Below, one piece after another: positions 11,516 to 16,968 of a stretch of DNA of 16,968 nucleotides. Position 1 is the stretch's first letter. Each line of letters opens with the position of its first letter. Under the pieces are notes generated by a model that was not told where the DNA came from, made no database searches, and saw nothing but the letters and a program-made list of their open reading frames with translations. The position numbers were made by a program, and so were the translations under genes. This DNA comes from a virus (lineage: Duplodnaviria > Heunggongvirae > Uroviricota > Caudoviricetes): IMG/VR virus record IMGVR_UViG_2537562190_000012; one strand, written 5' to 3'.

Positions 11516-12031
11516 TCCCGCTGCGAAGTGCCGCCCGCTCGCGCCAGCTAACCACTTCGCCGGGCGTCATCATGAAGATTTCGGCGGGCGACCAGTTAAA
11601 AATGGCGGCAATATCCGCCACCAGATCTTCGATGTGCTCAAAGCACACCAGGGTGATTACGCTGCCGTCTCCTGCACGCTCTTCGCGCCAGAGTCTGGCT
11701 CGCTCATAAAATTTACAGCCACAGCGCACAACTGAATAAAATCGCGTGACGACATTTTTTTAATCATCACTTCATCCAGTCGTGGCGAGGTCACGCGAGG
11801 CAACAGCATAAACATGGTATCCGCTTTCAGATTCAGCACATCAGACAGCGACAGACCACGCAGGGATCCAGCCTGCTCAATAGCCCCGGTGATCTCCACA
11901 TACGTGATTTTTTCGCCACCACGCTCAATTGGTCGGGTCAGTTTTACGCCACGTTCGACAGCCATATCCTCACCTGCCGTCACATCATCCGCCACGGTGT
12001 TATTCCGGTATCGAGTATCGATCTCTTTCAT
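11493..12031 (-). CDS. E': Tail assembly chaperone E+E' (predicted -1 frameshift fusion of E with the downstream overlapping frame)
   Basis: The downstream ORF 11493..11729 is in the -1 frame relative to E and ends overlapping the T start. An A7 run (minus strand, 11761-11755) sits in the overlap. The arrangement mirrors P2 E/E+E' and lambda G/GT. Confidence 0.6.
11657..12031 (-). CDS. E: Tail assembly chaperone E (P2 gpE family), zero-frame product
   Basis: 124 aa ORF with SD AAGGAG 7 nt upstream of ATG 12031. Lies between the tube gene and the tape measure gene. Confidence 0.8.
   Translation of the reverse strand: MKEIDTRYRNNTVADDVTAGEDMAVERGVKLTRPIERGGEKITYVEITGAIEQAGSLRGLSLSDVLNLKADTMFMLLPRVTSPRLDEVMIKKMSSRDFIQLCAVAVNFMSEPDSGAKSVQETAA
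11755..11761 (-). other. Candidate slippery site (A7 run) for the E/E' -1 frameshift
   Basis: Minus strand reads ATT AAA AAA ATG in the E frame. The -1 frame has a TAA immediately upstream of the run and then stays open into E'. Confidence 0.5.
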
Positions 12032-12086
12032 CAGTTGTCTCCTTTTCAGTCAGAGGCGGCGCACTGCGCCGCCTGCATATTACTTA

Positions 12087-12599
12087 TCAGCCAAGCCCAA
12101 GCGCGGAACGGATACGGTCAGGCACAATGTCCTTGCCGTCCTTCCGGTAGATGTGGTTCAGCAGGTCGATTTCCCACAGCGGACGATCGTTAACGCTCAG
12201 CTTGTAGTAGGTGTTTTTGACAGCGTAAGTGTGTGATGTGGCTTCGCCCTGTTTGGCTTCCCCCATATCAATTTCCGTCACACGCCCGCGCATCTCGATT
12301 TCATACAGATCACTTTCTGCATCGGTGTAGTATTCACCCGCAAAACGCAGCAACGTGCCGTCAATCGTGCCGCCATATTTAAGGAACAGCTCATGAACTG
12401 CGCCCCCCATGACAAAACTCGCATCAAGCGCAGAATCATCAAGACCGAGGTCGATACTCACCGCCCCCATCATGCCACCGCCACGATAGCTTTCAGTTTT
12501 GCGCGTCAGTTTAGGTGGAGTGACGGATGTCACCTTACCCACTTCGTTTTCACCATTCACAAACAGCGTAAAAAAGCGAAGATGTTTTGGTACAGCCAT
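12087..12599 (-). CDS. FII: Tail tube protein FII (P2 gpFII family)
   Basis: 170 aa, with gpFII-like motifs (VTPPKLTRK.E.YRGGGM, RFAG.Y, GEAKQGE). ATG overlaps the FI stop (TGATG); SD GGGAGGTG upstream. Confidence 0.9.
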   Translation of the reverse strand: MAVPKHLRFFTLFVNGENEVGKVTSVTPPKLTRKTESYRGGGMMGAVSIDLGLDDSALDASFVMGGAVHELFLKYGGTIDGTLLRFAGEYYTDAESDLYEIEMRGRVTEIDMGEAKQGEATSHTYAVKNTYYKLSVNDRPLWEIDLLNHIYRKDGKDIVPDRIRSALGLG

Positions 12600-13783
12600 C
12601 AGACACCTCCCAACACCGCAAATGCGGGATCAAAGTATTCATCAGTAAACGTCTGGTAAAGCTCCATATCTTCCAGCGGAGGAACGGGCGTATATTTGTA
12701 GCGAATACGCACACGCCCCTGACGTAAATCCGTGGTGCTGTTATCCACCACGTCATACCAGCACGACGCGCCAATCAGTTTCCCGGCAGTAACCAGCGAA
12801 TCCAGTTTTGCCCTGATGGCACTGATAACATCCTTCACGTTCGCAGGCGTCAGTGGACTGTCGATGGTTTCAAACTGCGCTTCCGCAATTGAATCAGCCA
12901 GCACCTGTGCGGTTCGGGTATACACCTCAAAGATGTAGGCGTTCGTTTCCGGTGTGCGGTTGCCCCAGAAGCGGAACCCGTTGCGACGAATAATGGTCGT
13001 GATTTCTTTGTTATTGAGGCTGTTGGCATCACTGTCTTCGGCCTGCAACGACCAGAACACATGCCTGGACATTCCCAGCACATTTTTAACCGGAACATTG
13101 GACAGCGATTTGTGCCAGCCCTGCTCATGGTCAATGTACGCACGAAGGCCGCACGCATAAGCAGGCGCGGGGAACGTTTCGTTTTCGCCACTTTTCGGGT
13201 TGTAGGCGATGAAGTCAGGCCATAAGAGCATCACTTCACGTTCGTTGAATTTCTGGCGGTAGGTAATCGCTTCAGCCATCGTGTTACAGCCGTGACATGA
13301 GGCATACACAAATGCGCGCAGTTTACCCGCAATCACGCACAGGGATTTTGTCACCGCCTCCGTGTCCAGCTCCGGCGCGGCCAGAATACGCGGACGGTAT
13401 CCGATGCTTTCATCCTGCTCTGCAACAAGCAGCGCATACATCCCCGTATAGCTGCCGTCATCCTCAGAACCACCGATAACCAGTTGATCCTGCGTCTTAC
13501 CGTCTTCTTCTTTGTGTTCAGCCACGCGAACGACGATCACCTTTGTGCTCACCTGGTCTGCGATGGCCTTAAGCGCACGATAAAGCGTCCCCGTTGTTCC
13601 GCATTTTCCCAGCACGTCATTGACGCGGGTCAGCAGTGTAGGCTTGTTCAGCGGGAACAGCTTCGCGTCCGCATCATCCGCCGTTGCCACGATACCGATA
13701 ACGCTGGAATCAACATCGTTAATCGCTGTTACCAGGTCGGTATTTTCCGTAACACGGGCACCATGAAAACGAGTTTCACTCAT
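12599..13783 (-). CDS. FI: Contractile tail sheath protein FI (P2 gpFI family)
   Basis: 394 aa, with motifs matching gpFI as I recall it (FPLNKP, LRAFVYASCHGC, DQEQGWHKSLSNV, IRRNGFRFWGNRT, YTPVPPLE). SD AAGGGG upstream of ATG 13783. Confidence 0.93.
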   Translation of the reverse strand: MSETRFHGARVTENTDLVTAINDVDSSVIGIVATADDADAKLFPLNKPTLLTRVNDVLGKCGTTGTLYRALKAIADQVSTKVIVVRVAEHKEEDGKTQDQLVIGGSEDDGSYTGMYALLVAEQDESIGYRPRILAAPELDTEAVTKSLCVIAGKLRAFVYASCHGCNTMAEAITYRQKFNEREVMLLWPDFIAYNPKSGENETFPAPAYACGLRAYIDHEQGWHKSLSNVPVKNVLGMSRHVFWSLQAEDSDANSLNNKEITTIIRRNGFRFWGNRTPETNAYIFEVYTRTAQVLADSIAEAQFETIDSPLTPANVKDVISAIRAKLDSLVTAGKLIGASCWYDVVDNSTTDLRQGRVRIRYKYTPVPPLEDMELYQTFTDEYFDPAFAVLGGV

Positions 13784-13940: not shown

Positions 13941-15050
13941 ATGACCGACACCACCATGCAATTGCTCAGTCAGGGCACAGACCCCGTAAAAATGCCGGAT
14001 TTTGATATTCTCGCGGAGGGTAAAACGCTGTCCGGCGTGGCAGAGCGCCTGATGAGCCTGTCGCTGACCGACAACCGGGGATTTGAGGCAGACCAGCTCA
14101 CCATCACGCTGGATGATGCGGATGGTCAGTTGCGGCTACCGCCACGGGGCGCGCGCCTGACGGTTCTCATTGGCTGGAAAGGCGAACCGCTGACAGAAAA
14201 AGGCTCTTACATTGTTGATGAAATCGCACACGAAGGACCGCCGGACAGGCTGACTGTTTCAGCCAGAAGCGCAGATTTTCGGGATGAATTTAACGTTAAA
14301 CGTGAGGTGTCCTGGCATGATGTGACCGTTGAGCGTGTGGTATCCGCCATCGCTCATCGGTACGGTCTGAAACCGCAAATCAGCGAAATGCTGATGGATA
14401 TCGAAATCGACCACGCCGACCAGACCGAAGAAAGTGACATGTCCTTCCTTACGCGCATGGCGGAAATGCTGGGCGCAATCACCACGGTAAAAAGCGGTAA
14501 TCTGTTATTCATCATGCCCGGCGGTGGCGTGAACGCACAGGGCCAGCCGTTGCCATCGTTCGCCATCACACGCAGCAGCGGCGATCGCCATCAGTTCCGC
14601 ATTGCTGACCGCGAGGCGTATACGGGGGTACGCGCTTACTGGCTTGATCTTAATTACGGGAAAAAGAAAAAAGTCAGCGTGAAACGCCGCAAACCGCCAA
14701 AACCGAAAAAAGAGAAAAGCAGCAGCCGTGAAGGTGATTATATGGAAGGCGCGGAAGGCAATGTGTTTGTGTTACGCAAGACTTATCAGAACGAGCAGGC
14801 AGCAAGACGCGCAGCGGCGGCAAAGTGGCAACAACTACAACGCGGAGCCGCATCATTCTCCATCACGCTGGCACGTGGACGAGCAGAACTCTACCCCGAA
14901 ATGCATGGCACGGTAACAGGATTTAAAAGCGAGATTGATAATCAGGACTGGATTATTGCAAAAGCCGAGCACACCATTGATAACAGCGGCTTTACCACGC
15001 AGCTTGAGCTTGAGGCAAAAATCCCGGAATGGATAGCGGAAACAGAGTGA
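13941..15050 (+). CDS. D: Tail protein D (phage late control gene D family)
   Basis: Track ORF 13809..15050. ATG 13941 is preferred because AGGGAGG lies 5 nt upstream. Protein has gpD-like features and a lysine-rich internal segment. Confidence 0.85.
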   Translation: MTDTTMQLLSQGTDPVKMPDFDILAEGKTLSGVAERLMSLSLTDNRGFEADQLTITLDDADGQLRLPPRGARLTVLIGWKGEPLTEKGSYIVDEIAHEGPPDRLTVSARSADFRDEFNVKREVSWHDVTVERVVSAIAHRYGLKPQISEMLMDIEIDHADQTEESDMSFLTRMAEMLGAITTVKSGNLLFIMPGGGVNAQGQPLPSFAITRSSGDRHQFRIADREAYTGVRAYWLDLNYGKKKKVSVKRRKPPKPKKEKSSSREGDYMEGAEGNVFVLRKTYQNEQAARRAAAAKWQQLQRGAASFSITLARGRAELYPEMHGTVTGFKSEIDNQDWIIAKAEHTIDNSGFTTQLELEAKIPEWIAETE

Positions 15051-15092
15051 GCAACTTAGAATAGCGGCAGCACCACGTTAAAGGAGGTCGCT

Positions 15093-15353
15093 ATGTTCCG
15101 TTGTCCGCTTTGTGGCGCATCTGCCCGTATCCGCACCAGTCGTCCGGAAAATGATTCAAACACCGTGCGGCAAAAGTATTACCAGTGTAACAACCTGGAA
15201 TGCGGCGTATGCTTCTCAACACTGGAAGCTTTCCATAAATTCACATCGAAACACGCCTCCGGCGTTCACTCATCAGAAGGTATCCCGTGGCATGAGCTGC
15301 CAGCTTCACACAGGGGAAACAATCAGATGAGTTTGCCTTTACCTCAGAATTAA
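15093..15353 (+). CDS. ogr: Ogr/Delta-family zinc-finger late transcription activator
   Basis: 86 aa. SD AAGGAGG 5 nt upstream of ATG. N-terminal CPLC ... QCNNLEC Cys4 arrangement as in P2 Ogr. Position after D. Confidence 0.85.
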   Translation: MFRCPLCGASARIRTSRPENDSNTVRQKYYQCNNLECGVCFSTLEAFHKFTSKHASGVHSSEGIPWHELPASHRGNNQMSLPLPQN

Positions 15354-15491
15354 CAGGCAGAATTGCCGGAGTAACAAAAAAGCGATAGATTACGTGCGGG
15401 TGCCTTTCGGCTGATGGTCGGAGGGAATACCCGAAGGCCGGATGTGGAAAGGCCCCGGAAAACATTTCTGTTTAACCGAGGCCCTAACCCG

Positions 15492-16327
15492 TCAACCTAG
15501 CAAGTGATAGGTTAGCGCCTCTCCAACAAAGGAGCAAGCGCTTGTATGGGTCCACCACATATTGCAATTTTTATTCTCTTTTAAAATATATTCCACGGGC
15601 GTCATTAGTGCGAGCGCCTTGTGGGGTCTTTTGCTGTTATACAGCACCAGATATTCCGCCAGCTTCTGGTTAAATAGCGCCAGATCTTCAAAGAGTAAAA
15701 TCTCATTAAATTCAATAAACTGCTCTCTTAACGTCCGGTTAAAACGTTCACAGATAGCGTTCATTTTTGGCGTGTAGGGATAGGTCCAGAGGTGTTTGAT
15801 AGCGGCTTCCTGCAGCGTTTTGTCGAAGTTTCCCAGGAACTCTTTTCCGTTATCTGTGATTATCTGGCTGATACCGACCGGGAACAACCGGGCTGCGCGG
15901 CTGAAGAAGTGATTGACGATATCACTGTTGAGTGACGGCACAGCCAGCGCCAGCGCGTAATTGCTGCATTCGTCGATCATGGTGATGACATAGCGACGCA
16001 GTTCGCCCATTCTGAGCTCAATGGCGTCCATCCCAATGAGCTCACCTGTCTTTACCGGGCGGTAGTGCTTTGGCCTGCGGGGTTTGGCAGACCGCTTTTT
16101 GACAAGCAGTGCCTTCCCCCGCGATCCCAGACGCACAGGTATCATCCGCATTTTATCATGTGCGGCAGCGATCATTCTGCCGATGGTGGAAACACTCGGA
16201 CAGGCCAGATAGCGCTGTTCGCACCAGGGCTTCAGGCGAACAAAAATCTGCTCTTTACCGAGGTTCGGCAGCTCTGTCCTGAGGCGTCGAATCTCTTTCA
16301 GCACATCGGGATGCCAGTGTTTTTTCG
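15492..16327 (-). CDS. IS transposase OrfB (integrase-core / DDE domain), probably made as an OrfAB fusion by -1 frameshift
   Basis: Frame is open from 16343 downward. Integrase-core-like motifs (ITDNGKEF, YPYTPKMNAICERFNRTLRE). It is in the -1 frame relative to OrfA, with the heptamer A AAA AAC (minus strand, 16325-16319) in the overlap. Confidence 0.7.
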
Positions 16328-16579
16328 TCGCACCAGAGGTGCCTTACTGTGCGGGATTAGCCCCTCAGGTCCTTCCTTGTTCAGTAACTGACGCCACCAG
16401 TAAAGCGTGCGGCAGGACACGCCAAAGGCTTCAGAAGCTGCAGAAATACCGTGTTTATCCCAGAAGTGCAGAGCCTTCATTCTCATTGTTGCTATATCAG
16501 CCATCACTGAAAGCCTCAACGCATAATCGGCCGTTTGGTAGTATTTAGGATAGCCAACCATCAGATGCTGCATTTGCAT
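16298..16579 (-). CDS. IS transposase OrfA (N-terminal helix-turn-helix part)
   Basis: 93 aa. Motif AFGVSCRTLYWWRQLLNKEGPEGLIPHSKAP resembles the N-terminal HTH of IS481-family transposases. SD AGGGGAG upstream of ATG 16579. Confidence 0.7.
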   Translation of the reverse strand: MQMQHLMVGYPKYYQTADYALRLSVMADIATMRMKALHFWDKHGISAASEAFGVSCRTLYWWRQLLNKEGPEGLIPHSKAPLVRRKNTGIPMC

Positions 16580-16872
16580 AGTGCAATCTCCCCTTACTTA
16601 TCCGGAGGCAATTGCAATATCTCTGTGAACTTACACAGTGCTATGTCGCAAAAATCGCTTACGGCCATCACGTTCTGCGTGACGGCAATCCTCATCATCT
16701 GGATGTTGCACGGTTCGCTGTGTGAAATACGGATGAGCTTCTGGGGAGCGGAGTTTGCGGCGTTCTTACAGTGTAAGCAGTAAGGAAACCGCGACGGGGG
16801 AGCAATCCCCCGTCAATCGGTTGCCAGGGTAAGGTCGATAAGGCACCCTATCTCACAGACATGAACAACAAA

Positions 16873-16904
16873 CCCGCAGCATAAAAACTGCGGGTTTTCT
16901 TTTT
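16873..16904 (+). terminator. Rho-independent terminator in the 3' flank
   Basis: Stem CCCGCAG (16873-16879) / CTGCGGG (16888-16894) with an 8-nt loop, followed by TTTTCTTTTT. Confidence 0.65.
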
Positions 16905-16968
16905 GGTGTCCTCACCGACTTGAAACAGTGATCAGACTATAAGACAAAGCCCACAATGTAGCGGGCTT

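What the first reader, a model, noticed from the sequence alone, without database searches (positions are those of the whole stretch)
15443..16637. Insertion sequence next to ogr with an A AAA AAC frameshift heptamer
Directly after ogr, where a P2-type prophage would be expected to reach its attachment site or integrase side, there is an insertion sequence with overlapping transposase frames. The OrfA HTH resembles IS481-family transposases, while the two-frame organisation with an A AAA AAC heptamer in the overlap is the IS3-type programmed frameshift layout. It could be a functional frameshifting IS or a homopolymer-inactivated copy, and it may have disrupted the prophage end or the att region.
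Basis: partly seen in the sequence, partly recalled or inferred. Interest (0 to 1): 0.4.

Follow-up and report, generated by a model that had tools for sequence, protein, structure and literature searches.

The report
Broken IS481-type element inside phage hok/sok
This is an ordinary, widespread IS481-family insertion sequence whose single transposase gene is broken here by one missing A in a run of seven; it sits inside a phage-borne hok/sok toxin–antitoxin module rather than at the prophage attachment site, and across many copies this element lands exactly in front of bacterial promoters.

Summary
The insertion sequence (IS) is real. It lies on the minus strand at 15543-16637, 1,095 bp, with TGT...ACA ends, imperfect inverted repeats of about 28 bp and a 5-bp target duplication. 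The left end is 100 bp too far out.

The A AAA AAC heptamer (16325-16319) is real and correctly phased, but it is not a programmed frameshift site:
- Every other full-length copy of this IS that I read has A7 and one 362-aa ORF.
- No record among 5,426 complete E. coli genomes matches an A6 probe exactly.
- The relatives ISKpn28 (TTCAAGG) and a 93% variant (AAAAAAG) keep the frame without the run.
- No structure follows the heptamer.

The window's copy is identical to an intact copy apart from that one base. It is either a private homopolymer deletion or a base-calling error.

The IS did not hit att. It split the hok/sok-type module that P88-like P2-family phages carry after ogr. It landed between the hok Shine-Dalgarno sequence and ATG, directly upstream of the sok promoter.

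Side finding: across 37 distinct insertion sites, this IS and ISKpn28-type relatives insert immediately upstream of a sigma-70-like -35 hexamer, in one orientation. A -10-like hexamer lies 16-18 bp beyond it in 25 sites (25 of 35 in the scored set, P about 1e-26). That accounts for its repeated presence next to hok and ldr toxin genes.

The parts
15543..16637 (-). Insertion sequence, IS481 family (ISKpn28 group). It is 1,095 bp here and 1,096 bp in intact copies.
   Evidence: The boundaries come from alignment with copies in unrelated contexts and from empty sites. It is 74.7% identical over its full length to annotated ISKpn28.
16609..16637 (-). Left inverted repeat (transposase-proximal end), tip 5'-TGTGTAAG. 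It contains the ATATTGCAATT core.
   Evidence: (I18). The same core is reported for ISKpn28 in PMC6101004.
15543..15570 (+). Right inverted repeat, tip 5'-TGTATGGG when read inward. It contains the ATATTGCAATT core.
   Evidence: 21 of 28 columns match the left repeat, with one gap.
15538..15542 (.). Target-site duplication, copy 1 (GCGCT).
   Evidence: The sequence is single-copy in the empty sites of phage P88 and strain 2011C-4251.
16638..16642 (.). Target-site duplication, copy 2 (GTGCT). It has one mismatch to copy 1.
   Evidence: The same insertion has perfect duplications in L001 (AGCGC on both sides) and L061 (AGCAC on both sides).
16298..16579 (-). OrfA, 93 aa. This is the HTH DNA-binding part of the transposase, ending prematurely at ...RRKNTGIPMC* because of the missing A.
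15492..16304 (-). OrfB reading frame, 270 aa from an internal GTG. It holds the rve catalytic core with D185, D243 and E278 in intact-protein numbering. There is no stop codon inside the IS, so the frame runs 51 nt into the flank.
16319..16325 (-). The A AAA AAC heptamer, which is an A6 run plus C. Intact copies have A7 here.
   Evidence: It is the only indel in 16.9 kb against the closest genome.
16643..16783 (+). hok-family toxin gene (46 aa), cut off from its Shine-Dalgarno sequence and leader by the IS.
   Evidence: Pfam HOK_GEF scores 29.9 bits (cut-off 22) and NCBIfam HokA gives E = 2e-8. It is annotated Hok/Gef or 'MokW-like host killing' in relatives.
15398..15542 (+). hok mRNA leader, including the hok Shine-Dalgarno sequence AAGGAG at 15529-15534.
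   Evidence: Rfam sok RF01794 matches 15398-15548 with 48.5 bits and E = 2.6e-9, below the gathering score of 59. It aligns with uninterrupted loci.
15509..15537 (-). Putative sok promoter: TTGCTC (15537-15532), a 17-bp spacer, then TAACCT (15514-15509). It begins at the first base after the target duplication.
   Evidence: This comes from reading the sequence. The hexamers are conserved at the same position in other hok loci carrying the IS. It has not been shown experimentally here.
15448..15502 (-). Sok-like antisense RNA, approximate ends. It has a 5' tail, a 10-bp GC-rich hairpin and a U tract.
   Evidence: The fold gives -25.1 kcal/mol with z = -2.9. The ends are inferred.
16870..16897 (+). 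Terminator-like hairpin at the 3' end of the hok transcript.
15093..15353 (+). ogr/Delta-type zinc-finger late activator of the P2-type prophage.
   Evidence: Pfam Ogr_Delta, E = 5e-14. It is annotated in relatives.

Best explanation
Window 15543-16637 (minus strand) is one copy of a common enterobacterial IS481-family insertion sequence. Its closest named relative is ISKpn28.

The intact element is 1,096 bp and has four defining features:
- imperfect terminal inverted repeats of about 28 bp, beginning TGT;
- a 5-bp target duplication;
- a single transposase gene of about 346 IS-encoded codons, with an N-terminal HTH and an rve DDE core (D185, D243, E278);
- no stop codon of its own, so the gene terminates in flanking DNA.

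In this copy one A of an A7 run is missing. The gene is therefore split into a 93-aa HTH fragment and a start-less catalytic frame. This is a loss-of-function lesion or a base-calling error, not an evolved recoding site. At best a rare, unassisted -1 slip on A AAA AAC could restore a near-normal protein with one Lys changed to Asn. Otherwise the copy could move only if an intact copy supplied transposase in trans. Both of these statements are inference.

The element inserted into the hok/sok-type type I toxin-antitoxin module that P88-like (Xuanwuvirus, P2-type) phages carry downstream of ogr. It lies between the hok Shine-Dalgarno sequence and the hok ATG, with its right end abutting the -35 hexamer of the antisense (sok) promoter. 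The hok coding sequence is therefore cut off from its promoter, leader and ribosome-binding site, while the sok promoter and RNA stay intact. I infer that the toxin is silenced and the antitoxin retained.

This position is typical for the element. It inserts immediately upstream of sigma-70-like promoters, oriented with them.
For: IS boundaries, inverted repeats and target duplication. Empty sites in phage P88, strain 190693 and strain 2011C-4251.

Family assignment:
- The NCBIfam IS481 model aligns residues 33-331 of the restored protein in one piece, across the A-run, with 221.4 bits and E = 1.7e-65.
- ISKpn28 scores 234.8 bits, above the cut-off of 224.
- The IS3 model scores only 98 bits.
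- RefSeq names intact copies 'IS481 family transposase'.

A7 is the native state:
- L001-L003 and every other full-length copy of this IS in the fetched loci have A7.
- The exact A6 probe matches 0 of 1,250 records, while the exact A7 probe matches 90. All 40 listed matches to the A6 probe span 77 bases, which is the A7 length.
- ISKpn28 has TTCAAGG and a 93% variant has AAAAAAG at the same place, both in frame.
- Against the closest genome the window shows 77 substitutions and a single indel, this one. There are no differences elsewhere in the IS.

No fold stands out downstream of the heptamer (z = -0.68).

hok/sok. The phage origin of hok rests on P88, Chuche and P884B11 carrying ogr-hok uninterrupted at 96-97% identity.

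Target pattern.
Against: - The restored transposase falls 2.6 bits short of NCBIfam's curated IS481 cut-off.
- I could not query ISfinder, so the element's registered name is unknown.
- The heptamer is in the correct phase for a -1 shift, and A AAA AAC is a recognised slippery pattern, so low-level rescue cannot be excluded from sequence alone.
- The exact 93-aa OrfA recurs on 23 contigs at several different insertion sites. In principle that could mean the A6 form is a maintained variant. However, several of those copies sit in assemblies with extra frameshifts in the same IS.
- The sok promoter and Sok RNA ends are read from sequence and by homology of position. They have not been mapped.
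Confidence: 0.88

Rival explanations
1. The A6 run is a sequencing or assembly error. The real DNA has A7 and this copy encodes the intact 362-aa transposase.
For: The difference is one base in a 7-base homopolymer, the classic site for base-calling errors. The IS is otherwise identical to intact copies. The same A6 product turns up on 23 contigs at many unrelated insertion sites, including draft assemblies and assemblies whose IS copies carry further 1-2 bp losses, with IS lengths of 1,093-1,094 bp.
Against: Over 16,906 aligned bases the window has no other indel against its closest relative, so the assembly is not generally prone to indels. Replication slippage in A7 runs is also a genuine, frequent mutation. 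Sequence alone cannot separate the two.
Confidence: 0.4
2. The element is a functional IS that uses programmed -1 ribosomal frameshifting, or transcriptional slippage, at A AAA AAC to make an OrfAB transposase, as IS3-family elements do.
For: The heptamer is correctly phased in the OrfA frame. The -1 frame is open from the heptamer and encodes the DDE core. OrfA stops 8 codons later.
Against: - No record among complete E. coli genomes matches the A6 probe exactly.
- Intact copies and the relatives ISKpn28 and L066 encode one continuous ORF, and the run itself is not conserved.
- No downstream structure stands out.
- The IS3 family model is not met, at 98 bits against 160.
- AAC in the A site is a poor shifter in E. 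coli compared with AAG. This last point is established knowledge and was not tested here.
Confidence: 0.03
3. The IS interrupted the prophage end or its attachment site.
For: It lies after ogr, the last conserved late gene of P2-type phages.
Against: The sequences on both sides of the IS join seamlessly into the ogr-hok region found uninterrupted in free phages (P88, Chuche, P884B11) and in more than 1,100 E. coli genomes. Homology to these phages continues to about window 16904-16911, roughly 270 bp past the IS.
Confidence: 0.02

Closest known systems
ISKpn28 (IS481 family; Klebsiella and other enterobacterial plasmids)
   Same: - Same length, 1,096 bp.
- The terminal about 30 bp at the right end are identical, and the left end is nearly identical, including the ATATTGCAATT core.
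- 5-bp target duplication.
- Single transposase ORF that runs out of the right end.
- Same habit of sitting 13 nt upstream of a hok start codon. PMC6101004 gives the inverted-repeat core and the size of about 1,100 bp. PMC6339943 notes ISKpn28 'upstream of hokG'.
   Different: Only 74.7% nucleotide identity, so it is a separate IS by the usual naming convention. ISKpn28 lacks the A7 run and has TTCAAGG at that place.
IS481 / IS1002 of Bordetella (type members of the IS481 family)
   Same: Single-ORF DDE transposase with an N-terminal HTH, a size of about 1 kb and TGT termini. The NCBIfam IS481 model is by far the best match.
   Different: From memory and not tested here: IS481 makes a 6-bp duplication at NCTAGN. 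This element makes a 5-bp duplication next to TTG(C/A)NN-17-TAnnnT.
IS3-family elements (IS911, IS150, IS2) with programmed -1 frameshifting
   Same: Related rve DDE core, a TG...CA-type terminus, and in this one mutated copy an orfA/orfB look with an A-rich heptamer.
   Different: In IS3 elements the two-frame layout and the A AAA AAG-type signal are conserved and backed by a downstream structure. Here the layout is a private lesion of a single-ORF element.
hok/sok of plasmid R1 and the chromosomal hok loci of E. coli
   Same: A Hok/Gef toxin ORF, a structured leader matching Rfam sok, an antisense promoter and hairpin RNA, and a 3' terminator. IS elements lie close to chromosomal hok genes in K-12, where IS150 and IS186 sit near hokA, hokC and hokE (Pedersen and Gerdes 1999, recalled from memory; my one search for it found nothing).
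   Different: This locus is carried by a P88-like P2-type phage. The IS is upstream of hok, between the Shine-Dalgarno sequence and the ATG, not downstream as in K-12.
Ty3 and Ty1 retrotransposon targeting of RNA polymerase III promoters
   Same: This is an analogy only. An rve-type integrase inserts at a fixed position and orientation just upstream of a transcription unit, a 'safe haven' strategy (PMC8632968 and PMC5911963, listed).
   Different: These are eukaryotic elements, tethered by TFIIIB or Pol III subunits. No tethering factor has been shown for this IS.

Membership tests
IS481 family | Transposase matched by the curated IS481 family model above its cut-off | tested here: inconclusive
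   The restored 362-aa protein scores 221.4 bits against a cut-off of 224 (E = 1.7e-65), covering the model at 2-283 of 284. ISKpn28 scores 234.8 bits and passes. The next-best family, IS3, scores 98 bits against 160. RefSeq labels intact copies 'IS481 family transposase'.
IS481 family | One transposase ORF, with no programmed frameshift | tested here: met
   Intact copies encode one 362-aa ORF. The window copy is the exception, because of a 1-nt deletion.
IS481 family | DDE catalytic triad in an rve fold | tested here: met
   Pfam rve, rve_3 and rve_2 domains are present. D185, D243 and E278 show the D-35-E spacing. The residues are assigned by motif, not by structure.
IS481 family | Size of about 1-1.3 kb, terminal inverted repeats starting TGT, and a short target duplication (family table recalled from ISfinder) | tested here: met
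   1,096 bp, TGT...ACA ends, inverted repeats of about 28 bp, and a 5-bp duplication.
IS3 family (programmed -1 frameshift elements) | Conserved orfA/orfB overlap with a conserved slippery heptamer | tested here: not met
   The A6 probe has no exact match in 1,250 matching records. A7, AAAAAAG or TTCAAGG occupy this place in relatives, all in one frame.
IS3 family (programmed -1 frameshift elements) | Stimulatory RNA structure downstream of the heptamer | tested here: not met
   The 119 nt downstream fold with an MFE of -36.9 kcal/mol, against a shuffle mean of -34.3 (z = -0.68).
IS3 family (programmed -1 frameshift elements) | Transposase matched by the IS3 family model | tested here: not met
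   98 bits against a cut-off of 160.
[quoted passage not shown] | Hok/Gef toxin ORF | tested here: met
   Pfam HOK_GEF scores 29.9 bits (cut-off 22). The NCBIfam HokA model gives E = 2e-8, below its cut-off.
[quoted passage not shown] | Leader and antisense region recognised by the Rfam sok model | tested here: inconclusive
   RF01794 scores 48.5 bits against a gathering score of 59, with E = 2.6e-9 and the full model length, at 15398-15548.
[quoted passage not shown] | Antisense promoter plus a short hairpin RNA opposite the leader | tested here: inconclusive
   TTGCTC-17-TAACCT lies on the minus strand and a hairpin folds with z = -2.9. The strict consensus scan reported no promoter. No transcript data are available.
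[quoted passage not shown] | Overlapping mok reading frame and a 5'-3' fold-back (fbi/tac) pairing | not tested
   Not examined. The IS splits the locus, so the fold-back could only be assessed on empty-site relatives.
P2-type prophage (P88-like, Xuanwuvirus) | Late gene D followed by ogr, with DNA identity to sequenced phages | tested here: met
   Pfam Ogr_Delta matches. The region is 96-97% identical to phages P88, Chuche and P884B11 across D-ogr-hok. The whole window is 99.5% identical to prophages in O103:H2 and O121 genomes.

The most novel reading that the evidence does not exclude
This IS and its ISKpn28-type relatives are promoter-targeting elements. They insert with a 5-bp duplication exactly at the upstream edge of the -35 hexamer of sigma-70-type promoters, so the duplication covers roughly -40 to -36. 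They are always oriented with the promoter. Target choice would be guided either by promoter-bound RNA polymerase holoenzyme or by the transposase itself reading a bipartite TTGnnn-17-TAnnnT site.

This would explain why the element so often sits between a type I toxin gene (hok, ldr) and its leader, because the antitoxin RNA promoter lies there. It would be a bacterial counterpart of the 'safe-haven' integration of Ty3 and Ty1 at Pol III promoters. I found no description of it in the searchable literature. ISfinder could not be consulted.
Probability: 0.45. Interest if true: 0.7.

Novelty: already known. Interest (0 to 1): 0.28.

Why it matters
As written, the finding is routine annotation. 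It is a known kind of IS, annotated in more than a thousand E. coli genomes, with a one-base lesion that mimics a frameshift signal. The practical lessons are three:
- Two overlapping transposase frames plus an A-rich heptamer do not on their own indicate recoding.
- Comparison with sister copies settles the question quickly.
- The phage's hok toxin gene is probably silenced here while its antitoxin is kept.

The more interesting outcome is the insertion-site pattern seen across copies. If it holds up, it describes a DDE transposase that recognises active promoter architecture at base-pair precision. It would also explain a long-noticed association between IS elements and type I toxin-antitoxin loci, and it could be exploited for promoter-proximal, orientation-specific DNA insertion.

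Tried and rejected
- **Naming the element.** Literature searches for IS481 plus hok, for ISEc20/ISEc21/ISKpn28, and for 'IS481 family' plus ISEc gave no name. My recalled candidate ISEc21 turned out to be an IS110-family element. ISfinder is not available here.
- **Rfam.** Other than sok, the hits in 15000-16968 were sub-threshold and taken as chance: Thr_leader with E = 0.55 and an archaeal snoRNA with E = 0.05.
- **Promoter scan.** The built-in consensus scan found no promoter in 15300-16968. Its criteria, 9 of 12 matches and at least 4 of 6 in each hexamer, miss the sok-type hexamers, which are 3 of 6 each, 6 of 12 in all. I therefore read these by position and by conservation across loci.
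- **Genome-contig scan.** One genome per species gave only two E. albertii fragments.
- **Shared ancestry or recombination as the cause of the hok association.** Rejected, because 11 different Hok proteins flank the IS, with different duplications and offsets of 2-15 nt.
- **A simple CTTGC target motif as the whole explanation.** Rejected, because a -10-like hexamer at a 16-18 bp spacer is present in 25 of 35 sites. The background is 1.5% per position in the same flanks, and 4.7% of 1,223 control CTTG[CA] sites carry one.
- **TTG belonging to the IS rather than the target.** Rejected, because TTG is present in the empty sites.
- **Post-insertion selection alone.** It cannot give base-pair register and a single orientation.
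- **mgrB +91 insertion of ISKpn28.** I tried to fit it to the pattern from a remembered mgrB sequence. I dropped this as unverifiable.
Full report
**1. What is in the sequence**

The feature is on the minus strand.
- ORF listing and Pfam show a 93-aa HTH protein, OrfA (16579-16298).
- They also show an overlapping 270-aa frame with rve, rve_3 and rve_2 integrase-core domains, OrfB (16304-15492).
- ogr lies just upstream on the plus strand at 15093-15353 (Ogr_Delta, E = 5e-14).
- The A6 run is 16325-16320 and is followed by C at 16319.

**2. Boundaries**

Megablast found the element in thousands of E. coli chromosomes and plasmids. Alignment with copies from three unrelated contexts fixes the ends at 15543 and 16637.
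- The tips are TGT...ACA.
- The inverted repeats match in 21 of 28 columns with one gap, and share an 11-nt perfect core, ATATTGCAATT.
- A 5-bp direct repeat flanks every undisturbed copy. Here it is GCGCT and GTGCT, with one mismatch. The same insertion has perfect repeats in L001 and L061.
- Empty sites exist. Phage P88 and the sister prophage in strain 2011C-4251 read GGAGCAAGCGCTATGTCG, with the pentamer present once.

**3. Family**

With one A restored, the protein is 362 aa and identical to RefSeq WP_032316181.1, 'IS481 family transposase'.
- The NCBIfam IS481 model aligns residues 33-331 in one stretch, across the A-run. It scores 221.4 bits (E = 1.7e-65), which is 2.6 bits below the curated cut-off.
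- The relative ISKpn28 scores 234.8 bits and passes.
- The IS3 model gives 98 bits against a cut-off of 160.
- ISKpn28 is 74.7% identical over the same 1,096 bp, and its termini are identical or nearly so. Its published inverted-repeat core is the one seen here (PMC6101004).
- The transposase ORF has no stop codon inside the IS. It always ends in the flank, 51 nt out in this copy.

**4. The A-run**

- All three reference copies have A7 where the window has A6.
- Every other full-length copy of this IS in the fetched loci has A7.
- A 76-nt probe with A6 has no exact match in any of the 1,250 matching records from 5,426 complete E. coli genomes. All 40 listed matches span 77 bases.
- The A7 probe is exact in 90 records, and the rest differ by substitutions.
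- At the homologous place ISKpn28 and L066 read CGCCGTTCAAGGCAC (RRSRH). A 93% variant reads AAAAAAG. The frame is continuous in all of them.
- Against the closest complete genome (O103:H2 CEC12044) the window shows 77 substitutions and exactly one indel over 16,906 bases. That indel is this one, and the rest of the IS is identical.
- The 119 nt after the heptamer fold no better than shuffles (z = -0.68).

The two-frame layout is therefore a private one-base loss in a single-ORF element.

Whether the loss is biological or a base-calling error cannot be decided from the sequence.
- In favour of a real mutation: the lack of any other indel.
- In favour of an error, or at least a recurrent hot spot: the identical 93-aa product occurs on 23 contigs at several different insertion sites, some in assemblies where the IS has further 1-2 bp losses.

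**5. What was interrupted**

The 145 bp between ogr and the IS match the Rfam sok family over its whole length (E = 2.6e-9, below the gathering score). Immediately beyond the IS, at 16643-16783, is a 46-aa Hok/Gef protein, followed by a terminator-like hairpin at 16870-16897.

Joining the two flanks in silico gives a sequence found uninterrupted in two places:
- more than 1,100 E. coli genomes;
- the sequenced P2-type phages P88, Chuche, P884B11 and others, at 96-97% identity, where the gene is annotated 'MokW-like host killing'.

The locus is therefore phage cargo, and the IS sits between its Shine-Dalgarno sequence (AAGGAG, 15529-15534) and its ATG (16643). Homology to these phages and to sister prophages runs on to about 16904-16911, so att is not involved. 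Four complete genomes (two O103:H2, one O121 and strain UTAK-14) carry the same prophage with the IS. The next-best matches listed, O103 and O45 strains among them, carry it without the IS.

On the minus strand, the first base after the duplication starts TTGCTC, followed by 17 bp and then TAACCT. Downstream lies a stable hairpin with a U tract (z = -2.9). This matches the expected sok promoter and RNA.

I infer that hok is disconnected from its promoter, leader and ribosome-binding site, while sok remains expressible.

**6. Insertion-site pattern (outside the original finding)**

In the first three contexts examined the IS lay next to three different hok genes. I then collected copies from IMG/VR, metagenomes, one-genome-per-species contigs, E. 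coli genomes and plasmids.
- Of 43 distinct left flanks, 11 are different Hok proteins whose start codon lies 2-15 nt from the IS end, always in the same orientation.
- ISKpn28 on IncF, IncHI1B and Enterobacter plasmids is at the same place. One paper notes ISKpn28 'upstream of hokG' (PMC6339943).
- Other copies lie 13 nt upstream of an ldr toxin gene, in the dinQ-arsR interval, and directly before a tRNA-Gly gene.

Among 37 distinct right flanks:
- the first three bases after the duplication are TTG in 26;
- a -10-like hexamer (at least 4 of 6 matches to TATAAT, with A2 and T6) lies at a 16-18 bp spacer in 25.

In the 35-site analysis such hexamers start at position 23 in 19 sites, at 22 in 2 and at 24 in 4. 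The background in the same flanks is 1.5% per position. The binomial P is about 1e-26 for all sites, and about 1e-21 for the 28 sites outside the hok loci I had flagged.

On 22 reconstructed empty sites, a promoter-like match occurs at offset 0 in 11. It occurs in 0-1 at each of the 80 other offsets, and in 0-1 at each offset on the opposite strand.

The TTG belongs to the target, because it is present in the empty sites. Selection after insertion cannot give this register and orientation. The element therefore chooses the upstream edge of promoter-like sites. How it does so is unknown. It might use promoter-bound RNA polymerase, or the transposase might read a bipartite site directly. The inverted repeats themselves contain TTGCAA.

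I found no report of this in the searchable library. I could not consult ISfinder, so novelty is uncertain.

**7. Verdict**

The feature is a known kind of IS carrying a trivial lesion that imitates a recoding signal, inserted in a phage hok/sok module. The interest of the finding as stated is low. The promoter-edge insertion pattern is the part worth following up.

Noticed in passing
window 15509-15542 and 35-37 distinct insertion sites in L001-L134: This IS and ISKpn28-type relatives insert with a 5-bp duplication immediately upstream of a sigma-70-like -35 hexamer (TTG in 26 of 37 sites). A -10-like hexamer lies 16-18 bp beyond it in 25 of 37 sites (25 of 35 in the scored set, P about 1e-26). 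The orientation is always the same.
   Followed up: partly
L002, L003, L011, L034, L037, L045, L051, L062, L066, L130 (hok); L080 and L081 (ldr); L073 and L074 (dinQ-arsR interval): The IS is repeatedly found beside type I toxin genes. Eleven different Hok proteins, and an Ldr toxin, start 2-15 nt from its left end. Another site lies about 240 nt from dinQ.
   Followed up: partly
window 15492-15542: The transposase ORF has no stop codon inside the IS. Its last 17 codons and its stop are supplied by the flank, so each insertion site gives a different C-terminal tail. Annotated lengths range from 348 to 372 aa.
   Followed up: partly
window 15538-15542 versus 16638-16642: The two copies of the target duplication differ (GCGCT and GTGCT). 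Each version is the native allele of a related prophage: P88 and L001 carry one, L068 and L061 the other. This suggests either recombination between IS-bearing prophages or a point change.
   Followed up: partly
window 12009-13313: Fifty-five of the 77 substitutions against the closest genome cluster in this 1.3 kb. By position it corresponds to the tape-measure, gpE, tail-tube and sheath region of the relative's annotation. The rest of the window is nearly identical, so this looks like a recombination patch.
   Followed up: no
window 16907-16968: The last 62 bases do not match the prophages near leuZ in O103 and O121 genomes. They do match the copy of the phage next to ihfA in strain 190693 (L068). 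The window's prophage may therefore sit at a different chromosomal site, or carry a different end module.
   Followed up: partly
L065 and L046 (ColV/IncF-type plasmids, near iss): A 93%-identical, internally deleted variant of the IS (about 1,059-1,085 bp) carries A AAA AAG in frame at the same place and lacks a matching target duplication. It is common on E. coli plasmids.
   Followed up: no
window 15363-15391: TTGCCG-17-TAGATT lies just after ogr and ends 7 bp before the start of the Rfam sok-model match. It is a candidate hok mRNA promoter, read from sequence only.
   Followed up: no
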